Assembly: GCA_964586255.1 (NCBI GenBank)
Contig: CAZPGE010000003.1
Span: forward strand, 2,537 to 66,536
DNA length: 64,000 nucleotides
Direction: 5' to 3'
From: an uncultured Candidatus Saccharibacteria bacterium
GTDB taxonomy: Bacteria > Patescibacteriota > Minisyncoccia > Phycocordibacterales > UBA2100
In this document: in pieces, positions 2 through 10,248 of the stretch
Layout of the letters: the number at the start of each line of letters is the position of its first letter
Position numbering within the stretch: the first letter of the stretch is position 1
Program-made: the position numbers and the translations under genes
The notes under the pieces: model-generated
What the model was told of the DNA's origin: nothing
What the model saw: only the letters and a program-made list of their open reading frames with translations
The model's database searches: none

Positions 2-1501
2 TCGGTCTCTGGCAATGCGTACTTTGCAGGATCTGGAATCTGGAATTCGAGCGGGAGTGTAGGTGTCGGTACGACATCGCCGTACGCAAAGCTTGCGGTG
101 CAGGCGACGGCGGGGCAGACAAATCCTCTTTTTGATATTGCGAGCTCGAGCGTAGGCACGTCGTTCTTCACGATTACGTCATCCGGGAGTGTTGGTGTGG
201 GTACATCGAGTCCTTCTGCAAGATTGGAAGTTGTTCATACCTCCAGCGGTGCGACTGCGGAACAGCTTTATCTCACTAACTTTGCATCGGCTACGTCGAC
301 CGCTTCGAGGATGACCTTCCGCGCCGCAGACGTGTCGGGCAGTGCGACATCGACAGCTGCGATTACATCGATATTGCAGCAAAATTATACGACCGGCAAA
401 GGTGACCTTGCATTCTCGACGCTTCAGAGTGGCACACTCACAGAAGTTTTCCGCGCGACAAGTCTTGGTAATGTTGGCGTTGGTACCACCACCCCGCTTC
501 GTCGTTTTGCGGTGGAGCAAGCAGCGTCCGCCGCGCAATTCTCCGTGGCATACGACACGACGCGTGTCACAGAAATACAAACCGATTCTTCAGGCGATGC
601 AATCATTAATCCGTCGGGCGATGATATCCGCGTCAACGATGACAATCTCTGGGTCTGTAGTGGCGGTTCGTGTCCCTCGGGCACTCCGAGTGGCACCGGT
701 AACTTGCTTGTTGAAACGGCATTGGGTGTGGGCACATCGACGCCTGTGTGGCCCCTCACTGCCTCTCATACGACGCTCCCGCAACTCTCCCTCACTGACG
801 GCTCAGCGACAAGTAACGCATGGACATTCCGCAGCGTCACGAATACCCTTTACATTGCGACATCCACTGCGTCGGCGACATCGACGGTCGCTGCAGTCAC
901 TATTACGCCGAATGGGCGTTTCGGAGTAGGCACCTCCACACCGACCACCCTGCTCTCTGTGGGCGGTCTCTTGAGCGTGGGAGCGAGCTCGACCGGCCAA
1001 CTGGCCACGATGGGAACGGCCACCTCCACGTTTAACGGTGACATCAAGATTACGGGCAAGCTCGACGTGGGCACCATCGACCCGGTATACACCATAGCCG
1101 GCATAAAATACGCAACATACGGTCATTCGACAGTGGGTATCAAGGAAGAAACGGTGCAAACTATTCATCTCGAAAAAGCAGACGACGGGTCGTATGCATA
1201 CACAATCGATTTCGACCATCTCCAGAAAGGAAGTGATCTCTGGCTGTTCTACCAGATTACCGATTTTGGAAAGAATTGGAGTGCGCTTGTAGTCTCACTT
1301 ACGCCTTCATTTGAGGGCACGGTGTACTACAAAAAGAATGTCGCTGAAAATACACTCACCATCAAGAGCAATAAGAAGGGCGAGGTCTCGATGCGACTCG
1401 TGGGCAATCGCTTCGACTTCTCCAAGTGGCCGAATCTTCGCACCGACCAAGATGGAGACACGTCAGGGTCGCACGTGATACCGGTGAAATCCAGACAATA
1501 G
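2..1501 (+). CDS. Giant repetitive 'tail-fibre-like' surface protein, 5'-truncated by the window edge (paralogue of the next gene)
   Basis: The reading frame is open from base 2 with no stop, so the ORF-track start at 98 is not the real start. It has 'GNVGVGTTTP'-type repeats. One block (PLRRFAVEQAASAAQFSVAYDTTRVTEIQTDSSGD...DDNLWVCSGGSCPSGTP) and the ~130-aa C-terminal domain (KITGKLDVGTIDPVYTIAGIKYATYGHSTVGIKEE...NRFDFSKWPNLRTDQDGD) are near-identical to those of 1503..4874. Confidence 0.7.
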   Translation, partial: SVSGNAYFAGSGIWNSSGSVGVGTTSPYAKLAVQATAGQTNPLFDIASSSVGTSFFTITSSGSVGVGTSSPSARLEVVHTSSGATAEQLYLTNFASATSTASRMTFRAADVSGSATSTAAITSILQQNYTTGKGDLAFSTLQSGTLTEVFRATSLGNVGVGTTTPLRRFAVEQAASAAQFSVAYDTTRVTEIQTDSSGDAIINPSGDDIRVNDDNLWVCSGGSCPSGTPSGTGNLLVETALGVGTSTPVWPLTASHTTLPQLSLTDGSATSNAWTFRSVTNTLYIATSTASATSTVAAVTITPNGRFGVGTSTPTTLLSVGGLLSVGASSTGQLATMGTATSTFNGDIKITGKLDVGTIDPVYTIAGIKYATYGHSTVGIKEETVQTIHLEKADDGSYAYTIDFDHLQKGSDLWLFYQITDFGKNWSALVVSLTPSFEGTVYYKKNVAENTLTIKSNKKGEVSMRLVGNRFDFSKWPNLRTDQDGDTSGSHVIPVKSRQ

Positions 1502-1502
1502 T

Positions 1503-4500
1503 ATGGCAGATCGAATACAGCTCGACGGAAAGACATTCATCCCCCTTATTGAGGCTGCCGGTATGACGGCCATATCGGAGAAACAGGTCATGGCGCTTGC
1601 ACAGTCCGGTCAGGTTTTCCTCAGGGCGATAGGGAAGAAAGTGTATGTCGATATTGATGGGCTGCGAAATGCTGTACGTACGCAACAATCGGCTCCCGTC
1701 GTGGAGGCGACTGTCGCGCCACTCCCTGTCGCTCCGCTGGTGAAGGCACGGGCGCTGTCTGCTCCGCCCGCCGCCCCAATCTCTGCGTCTGTGGATGTGC
1801 CAATGACTCCGCAGTCGCCGACAGTCCTGGTATGGCCGGCGCCGAAAGTATTGGAAACACTGCGCGTCGCGACGCCTCCGCTGCCTACGCCACATATTCC
1901 GGTGCAATCATCAATGACGGAGCAAGCGCCAATGCGTCCCGCATCGCTCGTTGCTGCCCCGCTCGCGTCTACGCAAGTGCGACCGGAAAACATATCACCG
2001 CACCATCTAAGCTCTGCCGAGTTGTCCGCCCTCGCACCTATAGAGATTTCTGCGCCAGCAGTACGGAGTACGGAATCGCTGCCATTGCAAGCCCCGTCGC
2101 GATCGAACTCTCTCCCGCGCATGGTACTTCCTCCCAAACAGCTTGCTGGAGGGACCGGCCGTTCTTTCGCGACGTCGGCCTCAACGCTTGTCGCTCTCGT
2201 ATTCGTAATAGGCGGAGGTGTTGCAGTGTATGAAAACAAGCCCGCACTCGCTCGTTTTGTTGGTCATGTCGGTGAGCAGGTCGCAGCCGCCGTGAGTTTC
2301 GGTAATACGGCGACATACCAGGCACAGCCCGGTACGCTAGGCAACTCACCGCTGGAAAATAGTCCGAGCGAACTGCAGGCGAGCACGCAGGCCGGTACGA
2401 TACCGGTCGCAGTGGCCTCGTCATCGCAACCCATTTACTACGTATATAACTACCCGGTGATTGAGCGCATCCGTACAGAGGTCCAGTATATTGACGCTGA
2501 GAGTCCACAGGATTTTGCTCAGCAGCTCGACGCGCTCTACCAGCGCATCCAAGCGCAGATACAGAGTCTGAATATCAGCACCAATACGAATTTCGCGCAG
2601 CAATACCAAGTCATCGCTCAGACCAACAATATCGATAAGCTCGGAAGCGTAACCATCGACAATAACTCAACATTCTCGGGCGGCACCGTGACAGGCTCGA
2701 CGCTCACCGATATCGCGTCACTTGCAGTATCGGGAGGTACGACGCTCGGAGGGCTCACGGTGGGCGACATCACCGCTTCGGGCGGTGGCACATTCTCGGG
2801 AGCAGGCATCTTTTCGTACCTAACGGCTTCGTCGACGAGCGCGACTTCCACATTCAATGGGGCATTGCTCGCTACGAGGGCGCCGACAATTCCGCACACG
2901 TTCTCATCATGGACTACGGGGGCCGCAAACTCTGGTGCGTTTGATGCTGCCTTGGTTATCAATCCGTCCAGTGCCGTAGCGGATAGCAACCTCTTCTCAG
3001 CGATGGTGAACGGGTCGGTGAAATTCCTTGTTGATGTGGAAGGTGATGTCTTCGTAAACAACCTGACCTCTGTCGGCTCAGTGACGCTCTCGACCACGTC
3101 GGCGTCGACATTCACCGTCGAGGGCAATACGACGCTTGGCGATTCAATCACTGATACGACGACGATTAACGGAGCGCTCGTCGTCTCAGGCACGACGACA
3201 GTCTCGACCGTCTCGGGTAAGTTTGGTGTGGGCACTACGACTCCGTGGGCCAAACTCGCAGTTCAAGCGACTGCGGGTCAATCTCACCCCATCTTCGAAA
3301 TCGCGAGCTCTTCGAGTGGCACCTCGTATCTCACTGTTGCATCGTCGGGGAATGTAGGGATTGGTACCACATCGCCATCCGCGACACTCGCGGTGACCGG
3401 GACATTTACCACCACGGGTACCAACACGTTCGGTGGTGCGCTCAACATCGCGGGAGCAATCACCTCCACCGCATCGACCGCCAATACATTCCCGTATGCA
3501 TCATCTACCGCGCTCACTGTCTCAGGCACGGGCTACTTCGCGGCTGCCTCCACGACCAATCTCACGGTATCGGCGCTCACAAGCGGTCGCGTACCATTTA
3601 TCACGACGGCGGGGGCATTCACCGATTCGAGTGCATTTGCATTCGACAGCTCTCTCACGAGGCTCACTGTCACGAATGCATCAACAACAGCACTTACGGT
3701 AAATGGTTCAGCATATTTCAACGTAGCCTCGACATCGCAGCTCTCCGTCTTTAGTCGTGCATATTTTGGCGGCTCTGCTACAAGTACATTCGATTCTGCC
3801 GGAAACATATTTGCGGTCGGAACACTCGGTGTGGGTACGTCATCACCACTCCGGAAGTTCGCTGTTGAACAGGCTGCCTCAGCGGCACAGTTCTCGGTCG
3901 CATACGATACGACGCGTGTCACTGAAATACAGACCGACTCGTCGGGAGATGTCGTCATCAATCCTTCCGGTGACGATGCTCGTCTCAACGATGACAATCT
4001 CTGGGTCTGCGCAGGAGGTTCGTGTCCAAGCGGCACGCCAAGCGATACCGGCAATCTCATCGTGGAGACCAAGATCGGTATCGGCTCTTCGACGCCGATG
4101 GACCTGCTGTCGATCAGTGGCACGCCGAATCCGCGTGTTCGATTCAACGATTCGGGAGGTTCCGCGTTCCAACTTCTCTTCGATAACTCCGACGCGTATT
4201 TGGATAATGCAAAAGTGGGTAAAAACTTTGTCTTTAGAACCTCGAACTCAAGTGCCTTAGACACGACGGCTATAACTATTCTATCGAGTGGAAAGACTGG
4301 TATCGGTACCACGACACCGACCGACATGCTCTCTGTGCACGGACTTCTGCGCGTGGGGGCGAATAGTGTCGCACCCGTAACACTAGGTACTGCCACTTCC
4401 ACATTCAACGGCGACATCAAGATATTGGGCAAGCTCGACGTGGGCACCATCGACCCGGCGTACACCATAGGAGGTACCAAATATGCGACATATGGGCACT

Positions 4501-4874
4501 CAACAGTCGGGATCAAGGAAGAGACGGTGTTGAAGATCAGTATGCAGCAGTGGGATCCGGAGAGTGGACTGTATCGATACATTATCGACTTTGACGAGCT
4601 CGAGAGAGGAATCGACCTTTGGCTCTTCTATCAGATCACGGACTTTGGAAAAGACTGGAAGAATCTTATTGTATCGCTTACGCCCGCATTCAACGGATTC
4701 GCATTCTATGAAGAAGATATCGAAAAGAACGCGATCATAATCTACTCATCTCAAGAGGGGCAAGTTTCCGCACGACTTATTGCAAATCGCTTCGACTTCT
4801 CGAAATGGACAAACCTACGACCAGATCAAGATGGTGACTCCAAGGGCACGCATGTCATCGAGGAGAAACGGTAG
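1503..4874 (+). CDS. Giant repetitive 'tail-fibre-like' cell-surface protein with an N-terminal cytoplasmic domain and one TM helix (type II anchor)
   Basis: It is 1123 aa. ATG sits 1 nt after the upstream stop. A Pro-rich linker is followed by a TM helix (LVALVFVIGGGVAVY), then long Gly/Thr/Ser-rich repeats (SSGNVGIGTTSPSATLAV). The C-terminal domain is shared with 2..1501. Confidence 0.8.
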   Translation: MADRIQLDGKTFIPLIEAAGMTAISEKQVMALAQSGQVFLRAIGKKVYVDIDGLRNAVRTQQSAPVVEATVAPLPVAPLVKARALSAPPAAPISASVDVPMTPQSPTVLVWPAPKVLETLRVATPPLPTPHIPVQSSMTEQAPMRPASLVAAPLASTQVRPENISPHHLSSAELSALAPIEISAPAVRSTESLPLQAPSRSNSLPRMVLPPKQLAGGTGRSFATSASTLVALVFVIGGGVAVYENKPALARFVGHVGEQVAAAVSFGNTATYQAQPGTLGNSPLENSPSELQASTQAGTIPVAVASSSQPIYYVYNYPVIERIRTEVQYIDAESPQDFAQQLDALYQRIQAQIQSLNISTNTNFAQQYQVIAQTNNIDKLGSVTIDNNSTFSGGTVTGSTLTDIASLAVSGGTTLGGLTVGDITASGGGTFSGAGIFSYLTASSTSATSTFNGALLATRAPTIPHTFSSWTTGAANSGAFDAALVINPSSAVADSNLFSAMVNGSVKFLVDVEGDVFVNNLTSVGSVTLSTTSASTFTVEGNTTLGDSITDTTTINGALVVSGTTTVSTVSGKFGVGTTTPWAKLAVQATAGQSHPIFEIASSSSGTSYLTVASSGNVGIGTTSPSATLAVTGTFTTTGTNTFGGALNIAGAITSTASTANTFPYASSTALTVSGTGYFAAASTTNLTVSALTSGRVPFITTAGAFTDSSAFAFDSSLTRLTVTNASTTALTVNGSAYFNVASTSQLSVFSRAYFGGSATSTFDSAGNIFAVGTLGVGTSSPLRKFAVEQAASAAQFSVAYDTTRVTEIQTDSSGDVVINPSGDDARLNDDNLWVCAGGSCPSGTPSDTGNLIVETKIGIGSSTPMDLLSISGTPNPRVRFNDSGGSAFQLLFDNSDAYLDNAKVGKNFVFRTSNSSALDTTAITILSSGKTGIGTTTPTDMLSVHGLLRVGANSVAPVTLGTATSTFNGDIKILGKLDVGTIDPAYTIGGTKYATYGHSTVGIKEETVLKISMQQWDPESGLYRYIIDFDELERGIDLWLFYQITDFGKDWKNLIVSLTPAFNGFAFYEEDIEKNAIIIYSSQEGQVSARLIANRFDFSKWTNLRPDQDGDSKGTHVIEEKR

Positions 4875-4916
4875 GAGAGCGATGGATTACACTACGACAC
4901 CTGGTGCTATATAATA

Positions 4917-5510
4917 ATGCACACACATATGCAGAAACGAACTCGGAAGATGATGGTTGCGGCAGTGATGGCGGCTTTAATTGGAGTTCCTTTGTTCGTG
5001 GGCGCGGTTGTTATCACGGAGACCAGTAGCGTGACCGGCCTCGCGAGCGTGCTCGGTGCCCTCTCAAAGGGCTCGGGCACATTCGTCATCGACCACCCAC
5101 TCGACCCCAAAAACAAGCTTCTCTATCACTCATTCGTCGAGTCGCCCGATGTAAAAAATCTCTACGATGGGATTGTACAGCTTGATGCGTATGGGGAAGC
5201 CGTCATAGAATTACCTGCGTATTTCCTCGCGCTCAACAAAGACTTCCGATACCTCGGTACTCCGGTAGGTGGGCCCATGCCAGAGCTTTACCTATCTAAA
5301 GAAGTTCATAAGCGTTATTTCAACGTGCTAGGTGCAATCTCGATACGCATATCGGGCGGTACTCCCAGCGGACGTGTATCTTGGCAGGTTACGGGTATTC
5401 GCCACGACAGATTCATCGAAGCGTACCCCATAGTCCCAGAAGTTGAAAAGGGGCCCGATGAGCTGGCAGATAAGGGCGAATACGTGTGTGAAGAATGCTA
5501 TGTGCAATAA
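4917..5510 (+). CDS. Small N-terminally anchored protein carrying the conserved 'IDHPLDP...SWQVTGIRHD' domain (paralogue 1 of 3)
   Basis: N-terminal hydrophobic segment. The domain reads SKGSGTFVIDHPLDPKNKLLYHSFVESPDVKNLYDGIVQLD...GGRVSWQVTGIRHD...EVEKGP and is shared with the next two genes. Confidence 0.65.
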   Translation: MHTHMQKRTRKMMVAAVMAALIGVPLFVGAVVITETSSVTGLASVLGALSKGSGTFVIDHPLDPKNKLLYHSFVESPDVKNLYDGIVQLDAYGEAVIELPAYFLALNKDFRYLGTPVGGPMPELYLSKEVHKRYFNVLGAISIRISGGTPSGRVSWQVTGIRHDRFIEAYPIVPEVEKGPDELADKGEYVCEECYVQ

Positions 5511-5513
5511 CAT

Positions 5514-6059
5514 ATGAGGATCTCTTCAGTCAGGCTGCTCATAATTCTTGCTGTCATACTCGTCCCGGGCGTAGTCGTGGCGGTAAAACTTACCGGCAAT
5601 GTACAATTTAGAGGCAGCCTTGCGATTTCGGGTGCCCTCTCAAAGGGCTCGGGCACATTCGTCATCGACCACCCACTCGACCCCAAAAACAAGCTTCTCT
5701 ATCACTCATTCGTCGAGTCGCCCGATGTAAAAAATCTCTACGATGGGATTGTACAGCTTGATGCCAACGGAGAGGCAGAAATAGAGTTACCGGAGTATTT
5801 TGACGCGCTCAATAAGGCGCCGCGGTATCAGTACTTTCCCCTCGACGAGGCGATGCCTGGCCTCTATGTTAAAGATGAGGAGAAAGAAAATGGATTCGTG
5901 ATTGCAGGAGGAGCGCCCGGGGGACGGGTGTCATGGCAGATTACCGGTATACGTCATGACCCGTATATACTGAGAAATCCAGTCCGCAATGAAGTGTGGA
6001 AAGGTCCAAACGAAGAAGTAGGCAGAGGCGAGTGTCTCTATGAACCCCTATGCGAATAA
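5514..6059 (+). CDS. Small N-terminally anchored protein with the same conserved domain (paralogue 2 of 3)
   Basis: Shares a 48-aa identical stretch (LSKGSGTFVIDHPLDPKNKLLYHSFVESPDVKNLYDGIVQLDA) with 4917..5510, and the C-terminal SWQITGIRHDPYILRNP...KGP motif. Confidence 0.65.
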   Translation: MRISSVRLLIILAVILVPGVVVAVKLTGNVQFRGSLAISGALSKGSGTFVIDHPLDPKNKLLYHSFVESPDVKNLYDGIVQLDANGEAEIELPEYFDALNKAPRYQYFPLDEAMPGLYVKDEEKENGFVIAGGAPGGRVSWQITGIRHDPYILRNPVRNEVWKGPNEEVGRGECLYEPLCE

Positions 6060-6811
6060 TTACACGGGCTACATGTTTCCTCTTGTTGCTGACGCCAATG
6101 AGCGCGCATGCATATTTCCAGGGTTATTATGAAGCCGCCTACTACTCGCAAGCAACCTACTATTCTCAGGCTACTTACTACTCGCAAGCAACCTACTATT
6201 CTCAGGCTACTTACTACTCGCAAGCAACCTACTATTCTCAGGCTACTTACTACTCGCAAGCCAGCTATCAGACGACGTTCACAAGAAATGCGTCTATCGT
6301 AGGAGGCCTCAGTGTGGCGGGGCACATCTCAAAGGGCTCAGGTACATTTGTCATCGATCACCCGCTCGACCCTTTCAATAAACTCCTCTTCCATTCGTTC
6401 CTCGAGTCGCCCGACGCAAAGAATCTCTACGACGGCATAGCGAAGCTCGACAAGGACGGCAGCGCGCGAGTCACGTTGCCGAAATACTTCGAAGCGCTTA
6501 ATACGGATTTTCGCTATCAGTTGAAGCCCGTTGGTGCGCCGATGCCACTACTTCATGTCCTGAGCGAGGTGTCGGACAATAGTTTCGCAATTGGCGGAGG
6601 CGTCGCTGGTGGAAAAGTCTCCTGGCAAGTCACGGGTACGCGCAAAGACCAGTACATTCTCGACAATCCCATAATTCCCGAAGTCGAGAAGGGTCCGGAG
6701 CAATTGGTTGAGAAAGGCCAGTATCTTTTTGCGGCGGGGTACGACAACGGCGGCATCCGATCAATTTTCTCCGGAATAGTAGACCTTTTGAACTCCCTGA
6801 TCGCCCGCTGA
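6050..6811 (+). CDS. Secreted protein with the same conserved domain plus an inserted (YYSQAT)n tandem repeat (paralogue 3 of 3)
   Basis: Signal-peptide-like N-terminus (LLLLTPMSAHA). Contains ISKGSGTFVIDHPLDPFNKLLFHSFLESPDAKNLYDG...KVSWQVTGTRKDQYILDNPIIPEVEKGP. Overlaps the previous gene by 10 nt. Confidence 0.65.
   Translation: MRIITRATCFLLLLTPMSAHAYFQGYYEAAYYSQATYYSQATYYSQATYYSQATYYSQATYYSQATYYSQASYQTTFTRNASIVGGLSVAGHISKGSGTFVIDHPLDPFNKLLFHSFLESPDAKNLYDGIAKLDKDGSARVTLPKYFEALNTDFRYQLKPVGAPMPLLHVLSEVSDNSFAIGGGVAGGKVSWQVTGTRKDQYILDNPIIPEVEKGPEQLVEKGQYLFAAGYDNGGIRSIFSGIVDLLNSLIAR
6131..6266 (+). repeat. In-frame tandem repeat, 36-nt unit x ~3.5 (encodes the YYSQAT hexapeptide about 7 times)
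   Basis: Unit 'tactcgcaagcaacctactattctcaggctacttac' repeats perfectly. It lies inside CDS 6050..6811. Confidence 0.85.
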
Positions 6812-6836
6812 AGTGTATTCCTATACAATACCAGTC

Positions 6837-8036
6837 ATGGGAAAGTTTGCCGTGAAATATACGATAATCCCCTTCTTCATTGCGCTTGTGTTCGGAGTCG
6901 GCTATTTCATCTTCGGTGCTAAGCCGTACGCTGAAGCATCCTCCATCGCCCGCGGCGTGGAGGACTTCAAGGAACTATCTCAGCGCTTCGTCGCTCTTTC
7001 AGAAAAGAAGAGTGCAGAGTATGCGTTTGAGATACTCCGACGCGCGGAGTTACCCCCGAATACGGATTTGCATCTGTTGGGGCACGTCGTGGGAGATGAA
7101 TTGTACAAACAGCAGGGGATAGACGGTATCGTCTTATGTACGCAGGATTTCCGCAACGCATGTTCGCATTCCATAGTCATAGGAGCACTCAATGAATTTG
7201 GCGGAGAACCCGCCCTTGCACGCATCCGCGACGCGTGCCGAAGAGCGCCAGGAGGTTCCGGTGCATATACCATGTGTTACCACGGGTTGGGCCATGGCAT
7301 TCTCGCCTTTTATGGGTACGATCTGGAGCCTACAATTGCGCTTTGCAAACAAGCCGGCACTTTGGAATATCGTGAGCGCGAATATATAGAGTGTGTGGGG
7401 GGAGCCGTAATGGAGCTCATGGGCGGTGGTGGTCATGACAGAAAGTTGTGGCTCGCGAGTAGGTCACGATACTTGAGTGGGGATACGCCTCTTGCGCCAT
7501 GCACGAGCGACGTCATTCCAAGTGAAATAAAACCGCTGTGCCTTGTCTACCTCACGCCACGACTCTGGGAATTGGCCGGCATCGACTTAGGACGTCCGGA
7601 CCCGTCACTTTTCTCGAAGGCATTTGCGATGTGCGACACGCTCTCTCGCTCACGGCAAGAATTACGTGCCGCATGTTTCGGAGGCTTCGGAAAAGAATTC
7701 ATTCCACTCGCAGGTGCGCGAGACATTCGAGGCGTGGACCGGTTTTCTGATGATGCGTATGCTCAAGCGATTGAGTGGTGTGGGTATGCACCTGCAGAAG
7801 ATGGTCGCACGGCATGTATTTCAGAGGCTTTGGCATCGATCTTCTGGGGCGGAGAGAATGACCCAGAGGCGAGTTTCCGGTTTTGCGCTCTTGTTTCTGA
7901 GTCTGGAATGCAAAGCGCATGCTACGGAAGCCTCGCGCGTAATATTCAGGACTACACGGAAGGTTCCGTGCGAAACGCGCTGTGCGCACGTATACCAGAA
8001 AAGGAGCGTATAGAGTGCACAATCTCAGGTATATGA
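6837..8036 (+). CDS. N-terminally anchored Cys/His-rich repeat protein (family member 1 of 5)
   Basis: The ORF-track start at 6813 is GTG; the ATG at 6837 precedes a TM helix (IIPFFIALVFGVGYFIFG). Recurrent C...C...GYxHGxGHG motifs (MCYHGLGHGILAFYGYD). About 20 Cys, mostly in pairs. Confidence 0.7.
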   Translation: MGKFAVKYTIIPFFIALVFGVGYFIFGAKPYAEASSIARGVEDFKELSQRFVALSEKKSAEYAFEILRRAELPPNTDLHLLGHVVGDELYKQQGIDGIVLCTQDFRNACSHSIVIGALNEFGGEPALARIRDACRRAPGGSGAYTMCYHGLGHGILAFYGYDLEPTIALCKQAGTLEYREREYIECVGGAVMELMGGGGHDRKLWLASRSRYLSGDTPLAPCTSDVIPSEIKPLCLVYLTPRLWELAGIDLGRPDPSLFSKAFAMCDTLSRSRQELRAACFGGFGKEFIPLAGARDIRGVDRFSDDAYAQAIEWCGYAPAEDGRTACISEALASIFWGGENDPEASFRFCALVSESGMQSACYGSLARNIQDYTEGSVRNALCARIPEKERIECTISGI

Positions 8037-9088
8037 CACGACGTACCCTTATAGCGATTGCACTCTGCGTTGTATTTGGGGCTGGTGGCATCGCAGTACG
8101 CCAGTATGCGACCGAGACCCAGAGCTCGTTGGCGAACAGGCAGCCGACTGAGAGCGAGAGAATATGGACGGAAAAAATACGTGCGCTTGGTGGCAAAGCG
8201 GCATACGCTTCGCTTGCAAAAGAGATAGAGGGTATGGCGCCGGAGGTTCAGCACACGAGCGCGCATGCATTTGGCGCAGCCCTCTTTGCTGTCGAAGATA
8301 ATGCTGGACTATCTGTGTGCGACGCGCGCTTCTCGTATGGGTGCTTCCACGAGTTCATGGGTAATTCGATCGCGTCGCACGGGCTCTCTGTCGTCAACGA
8401 ACTCAACGAGGGGTGTATCCGGGTACTAGTCAAAAGCCCGCTCTCTTGCCAGCACGGCATAGGACATGGAATATTAGCCTCTCTCGGATACGACGAGGAG
8501 TCCCTCATTACGTCACTCGGGGAATGCGCCAAACTTCCATACAGTGACCGTATAGGGGGATGCTATGGCGGTGTGTTCATGGAATACAATATGCAAACGA
8601 TGCTCGGTAAACAAGGGCACTTACGGTCGGCAGATTCCGAGGAGGGTTTGTACAAGCCGTGTGTCGGCTTGGAATCGAAGTACCATGCCTCGTGTGTATT
8701 TTGGCAGCCGCAATGGTGGCACATTGCAGTGCTGCATGCTGAAAGCAGCGAAGAATCGTTTGCGCAGCTTGGTACCTACTGCAGAGGAATGACACATACG
8801 AAAGAGTTACGTCGCGAGTGCTTCCAGGGTATTGGCAATATTACGAATCCGGCCACCGATTTCGATGTAGTGCGCTCGCGAGAACTATGCGATGCCACTT
8901 CTTCAGACCACCTTGAACGACTCTACTGTAGGGCGTATGCCGCCAACTCCCTCTTAAATGGGGGCGGAGGAAAAATCGGTGATGGGGATGCGTTGTGCGA
9001 CGGCTTACCCGAAAGTGAGCGAGAGTTCTGTCTTGCGTATGCGCGCAATGAGGCAAATTCAGCGAATGTGTTGGAATCTCCTCTATGA
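8033..9088 (+). CDS. N-terminally anchored Cys/His-rich repeat protein (family member 2)
   Basis: Start ATG overlaps the upstream stop (ATGA). TM helix (LIAIALCVVFGAGGIAV). Motifs include SCQHGIGHGILASLGYDEE and CDARFSYGCFHEF. Confidence 0.7.
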   Translation: MTRRTLIAIALCVVFGAGGIAVRQYATETQSSLANRQPTESERIWTEKIRALGGKAAYASLAKEIEGMAPEVQHTSAHAFGAALFAVEDNAGLSVCDARFSYGCFHEFMGNSIASHGLSVVNELNEGCIRVLVKSPLSCQHGIGHGILASLGYDEESLITSLGECAKLPYSDRIGGCYGGVFMEYNMQTMLGKQGHLRSADSEEGLYKPCVGLESKYHASCVFWQPQWWHIAVLHAESSEESFAQLGTYCRGMTHTKELRRECFQGIGNITNPATDFDVVRSRELCDATSSDHLERLYCRAYAANSLLNGGGGKIGDGDALCDGLPESEREFCLAYARNEANSANVLESPL

Positions 9089-10248
9089 AGCCAGTCTTCA
9101 CGGTGAGCGGCTTTCTCATAATCGCCGCATGTGCTTTTGCGCTTATATTTTTTGCTGATGTTCGCTCTGCGCATAGTGAAGCCCAGCGCATCGTGGAGAT
9201 TTGCTCAGGAGAATCAGCACATGCCGAGTGTTACGAACGGGAGGTTCCGAGATTGCTTCCCGACTATTCACTCACGCAGGCCTTCGACGTCATACGTCAG
9301 ATTCGGTTAATCGACCCTGCGTACCAATTTTGTCACGTGCTTGCGCATAAACTCGGAGAGAGAGTCGTCGCTGAAGACCCCGACAAATGGATAGATGCCA
9401 TCCCGCTCAATCCGACGGATGGCCTGTGTTCAAATGGATATATTCACGGGGTGTTGGGTGGCCGATTTCGAGCAGAGGTTCTTGAACCGGCGGCTCTCAG
9501 AAAACTCATACCAGACTTCACGAGAGCATGCGCGTCGAGGAAAGAGTGGCGCTCCAGCGAACTGGACCGCGCCATATGCAGCCACGGCATGGGGCATCTC
9601 TATATGTTTATCACCGATGCGGACATTCCGCTTTCCCTTTCGCTTTGTGAAGACACGATGCCTGAGCAGCTGAGGCGCGTATGCCGCGAGGGTGTATACA
9701 TGCAAATTTATCAGCCGCTCGAACCGGATGACTATCTACTCATTGAGCGCATGCCCATAAAGCCGACGAAAGAAACACTCCGTTCCTTCTGTGCACGATA
9801 CACGAAAGATGAGTATGAGGGCGCATGTCTGCGAGAGGGCTGGCCATTTTTCCGAGAAGAGCTAAAGACTGGCGAAGGCATAACGAAATTTTGCTCAGGC
9901 CAGCCAAATGACCGAGAAGAGATAGCGTGCTTCGAATCCACGCTCGCACTCTCGGGCAGATTCAATCTAGGGAATCAGGCCAAGGCGCTCTCGCTGTGCA
10001 ACGAGGTTGCGGATAAATGGAAGGCGATGTGTTATTCGAGTGCGGCACGCGCGATACTTGAAGAGGACAGGGCAGAAGGGAAAAAGGCTGTCGCATTTTG
10101 TAAGAGCGCGGCAAACGATCAGCAAGACGAGTGTCTCGGGCAGCTTGCAGACACTGCCAGCTTCGTTTTCGGCAACTCCTCCGAACAGAAAAGGTTTTGT
10201 TCTCTCCTCCCAGTCCAGCTTAAGGAGCGTTGCCTGGGACAGCCATAG
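9085..10248 (+). CDS. N-terminally anchored Cys/His-rich repeat protein (family member 3)
   Basis: ATGA overlap with the upstream gene. TM helix (FLIIAACAFALIFFA). Motifs include QFCHVLAHKLGE, CSNGYIHGVLGG and ICSHGMGHLYMF. Confidence 0.7.
   Translation: MKPVFTVSGFLIIAACAFALIFFADVRSAHSEAQRIVEICSGESAHAECYEREVPRLLPDYSLTQAFDVIRQIRLIDPAYQFCHVLAHKLGERVVAEDPDKWIDAIPLNPTDGLCSNGYIHGVLGGRFRAEVLEPAALRKLIPDFTRACASRKEWRSSELDRAICSHGMGHLYMFITDADIPLSLSLCEDTMPEQLRRVCREGVYMQIYQPLEPDDYLLIERMPIKPTKETLRSFCARYTKDEYEGACLREGWPFFREELKTGEGITKFCSGQPNDREEIACFESTLALSGRFNLGNQAKALSLCNEVADKWKAMCYSSAARAILEEDRAEGKKAVAFCKSAANDQQDECLGQLADTASFVFGNSSEQKRFCSLLPVQLKERCLGQP

What the first reader, a model, noticed from the sequence alone, without database searches (positions are those of the whole stretch)
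2..4874. Tandem pair of giant tail-fibre-like surface proteins; a ~80-aa block is identical at protein level but diverged at synonymous sites
The two genes are separated by 1 nt. Both carry GNVG[IV]GTT(S/T)P-type repeats and the same C-terminal ~130-aa domain. One internal block (PLR[RK]FAVEQAASAAQFSVAYDTTRVTEIQTDSSGD..INPSGDD.R.NDDNLWVC.GGSCPSGTPS.TGNL.VET) is almost identical in amino acids. In the nucleotide sequence the same block differs at many third positions; compare 470-720 with 3840-4090. That points to an old duplication held under strong purifying selection rather than recent gene conversion. The conserved Cys pair (WVCxGGSCP) and the C-terminal domain are candidates for the functional tip, for adhesion to a host or partner cell. 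This is typical of episymbiotic CPR bacteria but not characterised mechanistically.
Basis: seen in the sequence. Interest (0 to 1): 0.6.

Follow-up and report, generated by a model that had tools for sequence, protein, structure and literature searches.

The report
Tandem tail-fibre-like CPR surface fibres
Two neighbouring giant genes of an ultra-small (CPR) bacterium encode phage-tail-fibre-like cell-surface fibres; they share a strongly conserved "neck" module that has been kept alike in both copies by old gene conversion and is where the outer parts of the fibres are swapped.

Summary
Gene A (2-1501, cut by the window; at least 1373 codons in a longer contig) and gene B (1503-4874) are 1 nt apart. 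They share G-x-V-G-x-G-T-x-x-P units, a 73-aa block (88% aa identity, 72% nt identity) and a ~160-aa C-terminal domain (67%). Synonymous sites in the block are saturated (pS 0.82, pN 0.10).

The organism is a Parcubacteria/Minisyncoccota (CPR) bacterium. B has an HTH_17-like N-terminus, one membrane helix, a beta-rich stalk with weak phage tail-fibre similarity, and a beta-sandwich head.

Across genomes the block groups by genome (bootstrap 99-100%), while the heads group by paralogue type (82%). The block was therefore homogenised between the paralogues; in this lineage that happened long ago, and purifying selection has held it since (omega about 0.02-0.08).

Mosaic junctions between related genomes fall in or at the end of the block. 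The block sits just before the C-terminal head in more than 100 protein clusters, with at least two head types. It works as a conserved neck and crossover site for exchanging distal cassettes. Adhesion is inferred, not shown.

Three small head-only paralogues lie downstream, an arrangement seen in about half of the related CPR loci. The head domain also occurs in DPANN archaea.

The parts
2..1501 (+). Gene A, 3' part only (500 codons including the stop). A giant fibre gene that runs off the left end of the window.
   Evidence: Open frame. The same sequence in L001 continues for at least 1373 codons without a stop, up to the contig end. The L003 orthologue has at least 2045 aa. PHROG tail-fibre families match at E = 6.5e-18 and 7.4e-12.
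1503..4874 (+). Gene B, complete, 1123 aa. It starts 1 nt after the stop of gene A.
   Evidence: An exact protein match is P0001. The closest named relative is annotated 'beta strand repeat-containing protein [Minisyncoccota bacterium]' at 69% identity.
1503..1680 (+). N-terminal HTH_17-like domain of B (aa 1-59), predicted to be cytoplasmic.
   Evidence: B alone scores weakly (E = 0.077, 13.7 bits against a cut-off of 27). Of 14 homologous N-termini, 8 hit PF12728, best E = 4.3e-7. Full-length relatives P0013 (1e-8) and P0006 also hit it.
2166..2231 (+). Single predicted membrane helix of B (aa 222-243). It follows a Pro/Ala/Ser-rich linker.
   Evidence: Hydropathy scan. The same layout of an HTH followed by one hydrophobic segment is seen in 9 of 11 CPR relatives examined; none was found in L027 or L028.
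491..709 (+). Conserved block ('neck' module) in A, aa 164-236 of the window frame. The extended repeat spans 476-744.
3843..4061 (+). Conserved block ('neck' module) in B, aa 781-853. The extended repeat spans 3828-4096.
   Evidence: The block is found in 380 cluster representatives at E <= 1e-3. The median distance from the block end to the protein C-terminus is 179 aa.
656..673 (+). Cys pair of A (C-S-G-G-S-C).
   Evidence: Both Cys are invariant in a 20-sequence block alignment. They are the only cysteines in the window part of A.
4008..4025 (+). Cys pair of B (C836-A-G-G-S-C841), the only two cysteines in the whole protein.
   Evidence: A disulfide bond is inferred, not shown.
725..1006 (+). 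Variable unit of A, between the block and the head.
   Evidence: 36-48% aa identity to B, with indels.
4077..4379 (+). Variable unit of B, between the block and the head.
   Evidence: In Athens0416_74 the gene at the B position carries an A-like unit here.
1007..1498 (+). C-terminal head domain of A (A-type).
   Evidence: 67% identical to B. 90-91% identical to the A orthologues. The A-type clade has 82% bootstrap support.
4380..4871 (+). C-terminal head domain of B (B-type). Predicted as a beta-sandwich with short helices.
   Evidence: AlphaFold2 gives pLDDT 92-98 for B987-1102. No PDB fold match reaches E < 0.07; the best domain-level match is the Pam1 tailspike receptor-binding domain. No PDB sequence match was found.
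1013..1156 (+). Less diverged A/B tract, copy in A. It covers the start of the head (GTATSTFNGDIKI..KYATYGHSTVGIKEETV).
   Evidence: 83% nt identity to 4386-4529. 27 of 44 same codons (P = 3e-4). The longest exact A/B match, 32 nt, lies at 1054 and 4427.
4386..4529 (+). Less diverged A/B tract, copy in B.
3528..4043 (+). Tract of B (aa 676-847) that is 91-98% nt-identical to the B orthologue of another genome (L003). The core 3903-4043 is also 98% identical to Athens0416_74. The tract ends just after the Cys pair.
   Evidence: Third-position identity is 0.73-0.97 here, against a background of 0.50-0.59 in flanking orthologous genes. No RNA structure signal was found (z = -1.31).
4917..6811 (+). 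Three small tandem paralogues (4917-5510, 5514-6059, 6050-6811). Each has an N-terminal hydrophobic anchor or signal and a ~150-aa beta-sandwich domain.
   Evidence: At least 1596 homologues and no Pfam family. AlphaFold2 pLDDT is 86.7. The best PDB fold matches are C-terminal domains of phage tailspikes and the R2 pyocin fibre (E about 0.02, probability 0.99-1.0). hhalign against the fibre head gives E = 5e-4 over 107 columns. Such genes lie downstream of the fibre gene in 33 of 67 non-DPANN loci, and 29 of those have at least three copies.

Best explanation
A and B are two anciently duplicated genes for giant cell-surface fibres of a Parcubacteria/Minisyncoccota (CPR) bacterium.

Architecture, shown for B and inferred for A:
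- a small HTH_17-like domain in the cytoplasm;
- a Pro-rich linker and one membrane helix that anchors the N-terminus;
- a long Thr/Ser/Gly-rich beta stalk built of units that each begin with G-x-V-G-I/V-G-T-x-x-P, as in phage tail fibres;
- a ~75-aa 'neck' module (the block) carrying the only two cysteines of the protein, probably a small disulfide loop;
- one variable unit;
- a ~150-aa beta-sandwich head at the far C-terminal end.

The block is the family's universal subterminal module and is under strong purifying selection. It is nearly identical in A and B because it was homogenised between the paralogues by gene conversion. It did not simply stay unchanged since the duplication. In this lineage the conversion predates the split from the L003 and Athens0416_74 genomes, so synonymous sites have since saturated.

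Because the block is conserved while its flanks vary, it also serves as the homology patch where crossovers exchange the distal cassette (variable unit plus head) between paralogues and between strains.

What is shown: the anatomy, the selection, the discordant phylogenies and the mosaic junctions.

What is inferred: trimeric assembly, the disulfide, outward orientation, and a role in contacting or adhering to a host or partner cell.
For: Anatomy:
- Searches give the gene layout, HTH, membrane helix, repeat motifs and cysteines.
- Tail-fibre likeness: PHROG tail-fibre families at E = 6.5e-18. 23 BFVD hits at E <= 1e-3 to phage tail-fibre and tail proteins. Relatives carry Peptidase_S74, Gp34_trimer or collagen repeats in place of or next to these modules.
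- Head: predicted with pLDDT 92-98.

Selection on the block:
- A against B in the window: pN 0.10, pS 0.82.
- A_win against its Athens orthologue: pS 0.55, pN 0.04.
- L007 pair: pS 0.60, pN 0.02. L008 pair: pS 0.45, pN 0.05.
- These give omega of about 0.02-0.08.

Concerted evolution:
- Block identity within a genome is 0.88, 0.96 and 0.93, against 0.53-0.69 between lineages.
- Among 57 block-bearing ORFs, the nearest neighbour of each L007 and L008 paralogue is its own tandem partner.
- NJ bootstrap: within-genome pairs 100%, 100% and 99% for the block, but 0-0.7% for the head. The A-type/B-type split has 82% support for the head and 0% for the block.

Crossover role:
- B_win against B_L003: nt identity 91-98% over B676-847, then a drop to background, and a head only 47-73% identical in 30-codon windows (70% over the whole domain).
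- B_win against Athens: 98% nt identity over B801-847, followed by a switch to an A-like unit.
- A_win against A_L003: the junction lies inside the block.

Subterminal position:
- In 114 cluster representatives the median distance from block to C-terminus is 179 aa.
- 36 of them carry the A/B-type head, and more than 20 carry a different ~118-aa head.

Cellular, not phage: the locus lies in a chromosome with pheT and dnaE, no virion genes were detected, and synteny is conserved in many CPR genomes.
Against: - In the window, and nearly so in L007, the block is as diverged at synonymous sites as the heads. The conversion is therefore inferred only from protein-level phylogeny, not seen in the DNA.
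- Only three or four independent lineages with both paralogues were available. The metagenome scan added none.
- Trimer formation, the disulfide, surface exposure and adhesion are untested.
- The monomer model of the stalk and block is only moderately confident (pLDDT 55-84).
- PDB fold matches are all weak.
- The head framework is conserved across CPR and DPANN. This fits a folding or trimerisation role as well as it fits a binding role.
- The N-terminus of A has not been seen.
Confidence: 0.6

Rival explanations
1. The block has simply been retained unchanged in both copies since an old duplication, by purifying selection alone and with no gene conversion.
For: Synonymous sites are saturated in the window: pS 0.82, and 24 same-codon sites against 21.7 expected. 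pN is low. A-type and B-type blocks of the window clade are each closer at synonymous sites to their own orthologues (pS 0.55 and 0.25) than to each other.
Against: The block differs by 31-47% between lineages, yet is 88-96% identical between the two paralogues inside each lineage. The heads show that the duplication predates those lineages. Without homogenisation, A/B divergence in the block should be at least as large as the between-lineage divergence (pN 0.21-0.32). The observed values are 0.02-0.10.
Confidence: 0.1
2. Protein-level co-evolution without DNA exchange. A and B must carry matching necks, for example because they co-assemble or dock to the same partner. The same substitutions were then fixed in parallel in both genes.
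For: In the window and in L007 the block is near saturation at synonymous sites although it is almost identical in protein. A conserved partner candidate, the trio of small paralogues, is encoded next door.
Against: This would need some 25-35 parallel replacements per lineage. In L008 the block does show lower synonymous divergence than the head (pS 0.45 against 0.70), as conversion predicts. Clear recombination tracts exist in this very region between genomes. Stalk lengths and sequences on either side of the block differ between A and B, which argues against in-register hetero-oligomers.
Confidence: 0.1
3. The genes are prophage or tailocin tail-fibre genes rather than cellular surface proteins.
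For: PHROG tail-fibre families match. Fold hits are to phage tail fibres and tailspikes.
Against: No other virion gene was detected around them. B has an N-terminal HTH and a membrane helix. The locus, with the trio and the Cys-rich genes, is syntenic in many CPR chromosomes. Proteins of this family reach 2000-4200 aa.
Confidence: 0.04
4. The C-terminal domain is not the adhesive tip. It is a folding or trimerisation nucleus, like the foldon, fibre knobs or the S74 chaperone. Specificity would then lie in the variable unit between the block and the head.
For: The head family is very large: 975 proteins at E <= 1e-3 among the 8000 candidates scored. It is conserved across CPR classes and DPANN archaea. 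In relatives the equivalent position holds Peptidase_S74 or Gp34_trimer domains. The unit between block and head is the least conserved A/B segment.
Against: The centre of B's head is the fastest-diverging part between close relatives, at 47-73% aa. The best fold matches are receptor-binding or C-terminal domains of tailspikes and fibres. The two roles are not mutually exclusive.
Confidence: 0.3

Closest known systems
Phage long tail fibres and the T-even distal tail-fibre (adhesin) locus
   Same: Both have a beta-rich, Thr/Ser/Gly-rich fibrous stalk built of repeated units. The window proteins match PHROG tail-fibre families and give BFVD fold hits to tail fibres. The head resembles C-terminal domains of tailspikes and fibres. 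Both have a mosaic architecture in which conserved motifs flank variable distal parts and act as recombination sites; for T-even phages this is from my own knowledge (Tetart, Desplats & Krisch, J Mol Biol 1998) and was not checked here.
   Different: These are chromosomal genes of a cell, with no virion genes nearby. The proteins are anchored by an N-terminal membrane helix preceded by a cytoplasmic HTH-like domain. The block and the head have no Pfam, NCBIfam or PDB relative.
'Tail fiber domain-containing' / 'beta strand repeat-containing' giant proteins of Patescibacteria that end in Peptidase_S74 plus Ig-like domains (for example P0013, P0019, P0021)
   Same: They share the HTH-like N-terminus and the same stalk units; homology is detectable over the N-terminal and stalk regions.
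   Different: A and B lack the S74 intramolecular chaperone and the Ig-like domains. They end instead in the block, one variable unit and the KYATYG...LWLFYQ head.
Trimeric autotransporter adhesins (YadA, BadA type)
   Same: They are long fibrous surface adhesins with a head-stalk plan. One source (JGI) names a homologue of the small downstream proteins 'trimeric autotransporter adhesin'. Upstream of the window, gene A has ten 17-residue N-N-A-x-G repeats that look like adhesin-head beta-roll repeats; this is a resemblance only.
   Different: There is no YadA_anchor beta-barrel and no YadA head or stalk Pfam hit. The anchor is an N-terminal membrane helix. CPR cells have no outer membrane (established knowledge; see PMC8080830 for a single-membrane CPR envelope).
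Concerted evolution and gene-conversion systems of surface-protein paralogues (for example Neisseria pilE/pilS, Mycoplasma MgPa repeats)
   Same: A conserved segment adjoining variable segments is kept alike among paralogues and provides homology for exchanging the variable parts. Discordant trees for the conserved tract and its flank support this here.
   Different: No silent, promoterless cassettes were seen. Only the two full genes carry the modules in this 64-kb window. Conversion in this genome is ancient rather than ongoing. The longest exact A/B matches are only 25 nt in the block and 32 nt at the head start.
Giant membrane proteins of CPR bacteria proposed to form a fibrous surface (Vampirococcus lugosii, PMC8080830)
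   Same: They are very large predicted membrane proteins of an epibiotic CPR lineage, thought to mediate recognition of and attachment to the host.
   Different: The Vampirococcus proteins are described with other domains (WD40, PKD, DUF11, integrin, fibronectin). The block, head and trio family is not described there, nor in the other papers found.

Membership tests
Phage tail fibre proteins (PHROG phrog_18345, phrog_9942) | Significant match to tail-fibre family profiles. | tested here: met
   A matches at E = 6.5e-18 and 7.4e-12; B matches at E = 5e-5. The matches cover the repeated stalk units only.
Phage tail fibre proteins (PHROG phrog_18345, phrog_9942) | Fold similarity to solved or predicted tail fibres. 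| tested here: inconclusive
   BFVD gives 23 hits at E <= 1e-3, but with high rmsd because the chains are extended. In PDB the best is the Mu tail fibre at E = 0.07, and the Pam1 tailspike receptor-binding domain at probability 0.87.
Phage tail fibre proteins (PHROG phrog_18345, phrog_9942) | Encoded in a phage or prophage next to other virion genes. | tested here: not met
   No phage families were found in neighbouring genes. The context is chromosomal with pheT and dnaE, and the locus is syntenic across CPR genomes.
Peptidase_S74-type tail-fibre-domain proteins | A C-terminal intramolecular chaperone domain (PF13884). | tested here: not met
   A and B have no Pfam hit. The domain is present in relatives P0013 (2.8e-17) and P0019 (5e-9).
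Trimeric autotransporter adhesins | A C-terminal YadA-type beta-barrel anchor and YadA head or stalk motifs. | tested here: not met
   No Pfam hits were found in A (1373 aa) or B. The C-terminus is a soluble beta-sandwich.
HTH_17 (PF12728) DNA-binding domain | A score above the Pfam gathering threshold. | tested here: inconclusive
   The B N-terminus scores 13.7 bits against a cut-off of 27 (E = 0.077). Of 14 homologous N-termini, 8 match, best E = 4.3e-7. A profile search against PDB found nothing.
ToxR-like membrane-bound one-component regulators (considered for the novel reading) | An N-terminal cytoplasmic DNA-binding domain, a single membrane helix and an extracytoplasmic C-terminal domain. 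| tested here: inconclusive
   The topology is predicted from hydropathy and from the weak, family-level HTH_17 match. DNA binding and signalling cannot be tested with these tools.
Concerted evolution (gene conversion) between paralogues | For the tract, paralogues within a genome are closer than orthologues, while the flanks keep the orthologous tree. | tested here: met
   Block: within-genome clades have 99-100% bootstrap support. Head: the A/B split has 82% support and within-genome pairs 0-0.7%. The identities are given.
Concerted evolution (gene conversion) between paralogues | Nucleotide-level identity of the tract, indicating recent or ongoing conversion in this genome. | tested here: not met
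   The block has 72% nt identity, pS 0.82 and same-codon use at the chance level. Only the tract at 1013-1156 and 4386-4529 is less diverged, at 83% nt.
Cassette-type antigenic variation (pilE/pilS-like) | Silent partial donor copies in addition to the expressed gene. | tested here: not met
   A profile search of all ORFs in the 64-kb window finds the modules only in A and B. The rest of the genome was not available.

The most novel reading that the evidence does not exclude
The fibres may be more than passive adhesins. Each would be a single-chain link from a host-contacting tip, across the membrane, to a cytoplasmic HTH domain. This is the topology of ToxR-type membrane-bound regulators, here with an ~880-aa fibre as the sensor, so that contact with a partner cell is reported directly to the DNA.

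The conserved neck would let the cell or population re-tool the sensing tip by cassette exchange. The fibre genes and the three head-only paralogues together would form a so far undescribed surface apparatus. This apparatus is widespread in Parcubacteria, and its head domain is shared with DPANN archaea.
Probability: 0.12. Interest if true: 0.85.

Novelty: new variant of a known kind. Interest (0 to 1): 0.55.

Why it matters
How CPR bacteria find and hold on to partner cells is largely unknown outside type IV pili in Saccharibacteria.

This locus defines a large protein family that has no Pfam or PDB relative. The head has 975 relatives at E <= 1e-3 among the 8000 candidates scored, the block 380 cluster representatives, and the small paralogues at least 1596 relatives.

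The family has a clear modular plan and a conserved gene neighbourhood. It shows recombination dynamics like those of phage adhesin loci: a conserved neck at which distal cassettes are exchanged.

This yields concrete, testable targets for structural and binding studies: the head, the neck disulfide, and the trio of small proteins. The locus also marks where strain-level variation in host range might be read out from metagenomes.

The presence of the head domain in DPANN archaea suggests exchange of surface modules between the two groups of ultra-small symbionts.

Tried and rejected
- Codon 'anti-correlation' (synonymous divergence beyond saturation, as if selected to avoid recombination). Some 25-codon windows have third-position identity of 0.16-0.32. 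A test over all identical residues gives 118 same codons against about 95-99 expected, and 24 against 21.7 in the block. There is no deficit, so the idea was rejected.
- Pfam and NCBIfam on A, B and the neighbouring genes: nothing. The precomputed families PF26209 and PF26696 seen on some relatives are absent from the local Pfam copy, so I could not learn what they are.
- PDB sequence searches with A, B, and the block, head and N-terminal profiles: nothing meaningful.
- An RNA structure as the reason for the 98% nt-conserved tract 3903-4043: z = -1.31, rejected.
- The metagenome scan for more tandem pairs found none beyond those from the genome scan.
- Attempts to recover the N-terminus of gene A failed. 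Every contig carrying this locus that could be read ends inside gene A; the longest (95 kb) ends 4.1 kb upstream of B.
- The promoter and terminator scan gave counts at chance level. The only notable site is a 10/12 promoter-like match at 4886-4915, ahead of the first small gene.
- Literature searches found no description of this family.


Full report
OBSERVATION

The frame of gene A is open from nt 2 to the TAG at 1499-1501. One T follows, and gene B starts at the ATG at 1503 and ends at 4874, giving 1123 aa. A local protein alignment pairs A17-496 with B571-1122 at 60% identity.

Both proteins carry G-x-[VLF]-G-[VI]-G-T/S-x-x-P motifs, four in each aligned part.

The block A164-236 (nt 491-709) against B781-853 (nt 3843-4061) is 88% identical in protein. 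It is only 72% identical in DNA, with 37% identity at third positions. pS is 0.82 and pN is 0.10. The repeat finder independently reports 476-744 against 3828-4096 at 71%.

At identical residues the two genes use the same codon 24 times, against 21.7 expected from their codon usage. Synonymous sites are therefore saturated, but not more than saturated. I had suspected selection against nucleotide identity from a few windows, and this test rejected it.

The shared C-terminal domain is about 160 aa at 67% identity. The WVCxGGSCP cysteines are the only two cysteines in all of protein B.

IS GENE A INTACT?

The exact protein B occurs on other contigs. On the longest one read (L001, 95 kb), the frame of A stays open for 1373 codons up to the contig end. 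Its orthologue in another genome (L003) has at least 2045 codons. In L008 the upstream-type gene is complete at 2155 aa, with its own HTH-like N-terminus and membrane helix. Nothing suggests a pseudogene, but A's own N-terminus remains unseen. All contigs that could be read break inside gene A.

WHAT THE PROTEINS ARE

Named relatives come from Minisyncoccota, Parcubacteria, Kaiserbacteria and similar CPR groups. The window itself is chromosomal and carries pheT and dnaE.

A and B have no Pfam, NCBIfam or PDB sequence relative. PHROG tail-fibre families match the stalk units: A at E = 6.5e-18, B at E = 5e-5.

B begins with a ~55-aa domain that is HTH_17-like at family level. B itself scores 13.7 bits, below threshold, but 8 of 14 homologous N-termini hit PF12728, best E = 4.3e-7. 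After it come a Pro/Ala/Ser-rich linker, one hydrophobic helix (aa 222-243) and about 880 aa of Thr/Ser/Gly-rich sequence. The same HTH-plus-helix start is present in 9 of the 11 CPR relatives examined, including proteins of 2600-3100 aa.

An AlphaFold2 model of B768-1123 gives a confident beta-sandwich head (B987-1102, pLDDT 92-98). The block is modelled as a small beta-sheet module with moderate confidence, about 80.

Foldseek finds nothing in PDB below E = 0.07. The best matches are the Mu tail fibre, the Pam1 tailspike receptor-binding domain and T4 gp34. Against predicted viral structures there are 23 hits at E <= 1e-3, to phage tail-fibre and tail proteins.

Relatives replace or accompany these modules with Peptidase_S74, Gp34_trimer or collagen repeats. 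This supports a trimeric fibre but does not prove it.

THE BLOCK IS A SUBTERMINAL NECK MODULE

A full scan of 1.84 billion cluster representatives with B774-865 finds 380 proteins at E <= 1e-3 and 218 at E <= 1e-10. Among 114 proteins with the complete block, the median distance from the block's end to the C-terminus is 179 aa (IQR 118-257), in proteins of up to 4245 aa.

Thirty-six of these carry the A/B-type head. More than 20 carry a different ~118-aa head. The block and the head also occur independently of each other.

Invariant positions include both Cys, and N-D-D-N-L-W is nearly invariant.

EVOLUTION: THE KEY RESULT

Tandem pairs also exist in L003, L007 and L008.

For the head, upstream-type and downstream-type genes form separate groups across genomes. 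Identities are 0.68-0.69 for up-up, 0.68-0.75 for down-down and 0.55-0.65 for up-down, and NJ bootstrap support for the split is 82%. Within-genome pairs are recovered in only 0-0.7% of replicates. The duplication is therefore older than these lineages.

For the block the picture is the opposite. The two paralogues of one genome share a lineage-specific sequence: 0.88 identity in the window, 0.96 in L007 and 0.93 in L008, against 0.53-0.69 between lineages. Bootstrap support is 99-100% for the within-genome groups and 0% for an A-type group. Among 57 block-bearing ORFs, the nearest neighbour of each L007 and L008 paralogue is its own tandem partner.

Such discordance requires homogenisation of the block after the duplication. 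Its age differs between lineages: pS between partners is 0.45 in L008, 0.60 in L007 and 0.82-0.84 in the window.

Within the window's clade, the A-blocks and B-blocks are each closer at synonymous sites to their own orthologues than to each other. A_win against its Athens orthologue has pS 0.55, and B_win against B_L003 has pS 0.25. The conversion here therefore predates that clade.

Where dS can be measured, omega in the block is about 0.02-0.08.

'Purifying selection rather than conversion' is not.

A second tract at the start of the head (1013-1156 and 4386-4529) is clearly less diverged between A and B. It has 83% nt identity, 27 of 44 same codons (P = 3e-4) and a 32-nt exact match. This suggests a later, smaller conversion.

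MOSAIC JUNCTIONS AT THE BLOCK

Flanking orthologous genes of the window, L003 and Athens0416_74 genomes have third-position identity of 0.50-0.59. Three comparisons stand out against this background.

- B_win and B_L003 are 91-98% nt-identical over B676-847 (window 3528-4043). Just after the Cys pair they drop to background. Their heads are only 47-73% identical in protein (30-codon windows; 70% over the whole domain).
- B_win and the gene at the B position in Athens0416_74 are 98% identical over B801-847. The Athens gene then switches to an A-like variable unit and an L003-B-like head.
- A_win and A_L003 are orthologous from the middle of the block onward but unrelated before it.

RNA folding does not explain the conserved tract (z = -1.31).

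The block thus behaves as the homology patch at which distal cassettes are exchanged. This parallels what I recall for T-even phage adhesin loci.

SURROUNDINGS

Three small paralogues follow B (4917-5510, 5514-6059, 6050-6811). Each has an N-terminal hydrophobic segment and a very conserved ~150-aa domain. At least 1596 homologues were found, and there is no Pfam family.

The domain is modelled confidently (pLDDT 86.7) as a beta-sandwich. Its best PDB matches are C-terminal domains of phage tailspikes and the R2 pyocin fibre, at E about 0.02 and probability 0.99-1.0.

A profile-profile comparison with the fibre head gives E = 5e-4 over 107 collinear columns, with probability 31%. The two are therefore probably remote homologues.

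Such genes lie downstream of the fibre gene in 33 of 67 non-DPANN loci that have enough downstream sequence. In 29 of these there are at least three copies.

The head domain also occurs in contigs assigned to Pacearchaeota, Woesearchaeota and Nanoarchaeota. Those contigs carry 120-144-nt tRNA genes, which are intron-sized insertions (ARAGORN did not call them). The proteins there start with signal-peptide-like N-termini rather than an HTH plus helix. This fits a genuinely archaeal origin.

MECHANISM AND LIMITS

The anatomy, the selection, the discordant trees and the junctions are shown. The following are inferred by analogy with tail fibres and with giant CPR membrane proteins (PMC8080830):
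- the fibres are trimeric;
- they point outward from an N-terminal anchor;
- the Cys pair forms a disulfide;
- the head or the variable unit binds a partner cell.

The wide conservation of the head framework also fits a folding or trimerisation role. The fast divergence of the centre of B's head fits recognition. The two roles may coexist.

VERDICT

This is a real, well-defined feature. It is a new variant of a known kind, namely tail-fibre-like surface fibres with recombining distal cassettes. It belongs to an uncharacterised family that is widespread in CPR and has a distinctive N-terminal HTH-plus-membrane-helix anchor.

Interest is moderate to good (0.55). It would be higher if the fibre proves to couple host contact to the cytoplasmic HTH domain.

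Noticed in passing
window 4917-5510, 5514-6059, 6050-6811: A trio of small paralogues shares a highly conserved 'SKGSGTFVIDHPLDP..LYHSFVESPD..NLYDG' beta-sandwich domain. Its fold resembles tailspike C-terminal domains and it is probably a remote homologue of the fibre head. The trio is conserved downstream of fibre genes in many CPR genomes.
   Followed up: partly
window 6138-6261: A perfect 36-nt tandem repeat (3.4 copies; about 6.9 copies at period 18) encodes about seven copies of the six-residue unit YYSQAT, in the linker of the third small paralogue. The length of this linker probably varies between strains.
   Followed up: no
window 1503-2231: B starts with an HTH_17-like domain, a Pro-rich linker and one membrane helix. 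This N-terminus recurs on giant CPR surface proteins that have different C-terminal ends. The topology is that of ToxR-type membrane-bound regulators.
   Followed up: partly
L040, L042, L043, L046, L048, L049 (for example L043 2747-10762, L049 1886-10417): The fibre head domain is also found at the C-terminus of proteins of up to 2844 aa on DPANN archaeal contigs. These contigs carry intron-sized tRNA genes. The proteins have signal-peptide-like N-termini instead of an HTH plus helix.
   Followed up: partly
L003 6141-6854: In a related genome, a 237-aa gene with a weak Y1 (IS200/RAYT-like) transposase match sits exactly between the A and B orthologues. It is separated from each by 1 nt.
   Followed up: no
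L001 about nt 700-1220 (gene A aa 235-405, upstream of the window): About ten 17-residue repeats of the form x-x-N-N-A-x-G-x-x-A-L-x-x-N-T-x-G lie in gene A. They are reminiscent of beta-roll repeats in adhesin heads, but there is no Pfam hit.
   Followed up: no
window 6813-8036, 7982-9088 (and probably 9085-10248): Paralogous Cys/His-rich membrane-anchored proteins with a C..HG.GHGILA motif lie here (25% identity, E = 1e-17). They have no Pfam family and are syntenic with the fibre locus in related genomes.
   Followed up: partly
window 4886-4915: This is the best sigma-70-like match of the region (ATTACA-18-TATAAT, 10 of 12). It lies in the 42-nt gap between B and the first small gene. There is no promoter-like or terminator-like site between A and B.
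   Followed up: no
window 3533-4582, minus strand: A 349-aa ORF lies antisense to gene B. It was not tested. It may be only a by-product of B's codon composition.
   Followed up: no
L001, L002 (contig ends at 4.1 kb and 0.7 kb upstream of B): Both independent assemblies that could be read across this locus break inside gene A. This may reflect repeats or strain-level variation in the gene.
   Followed up: no
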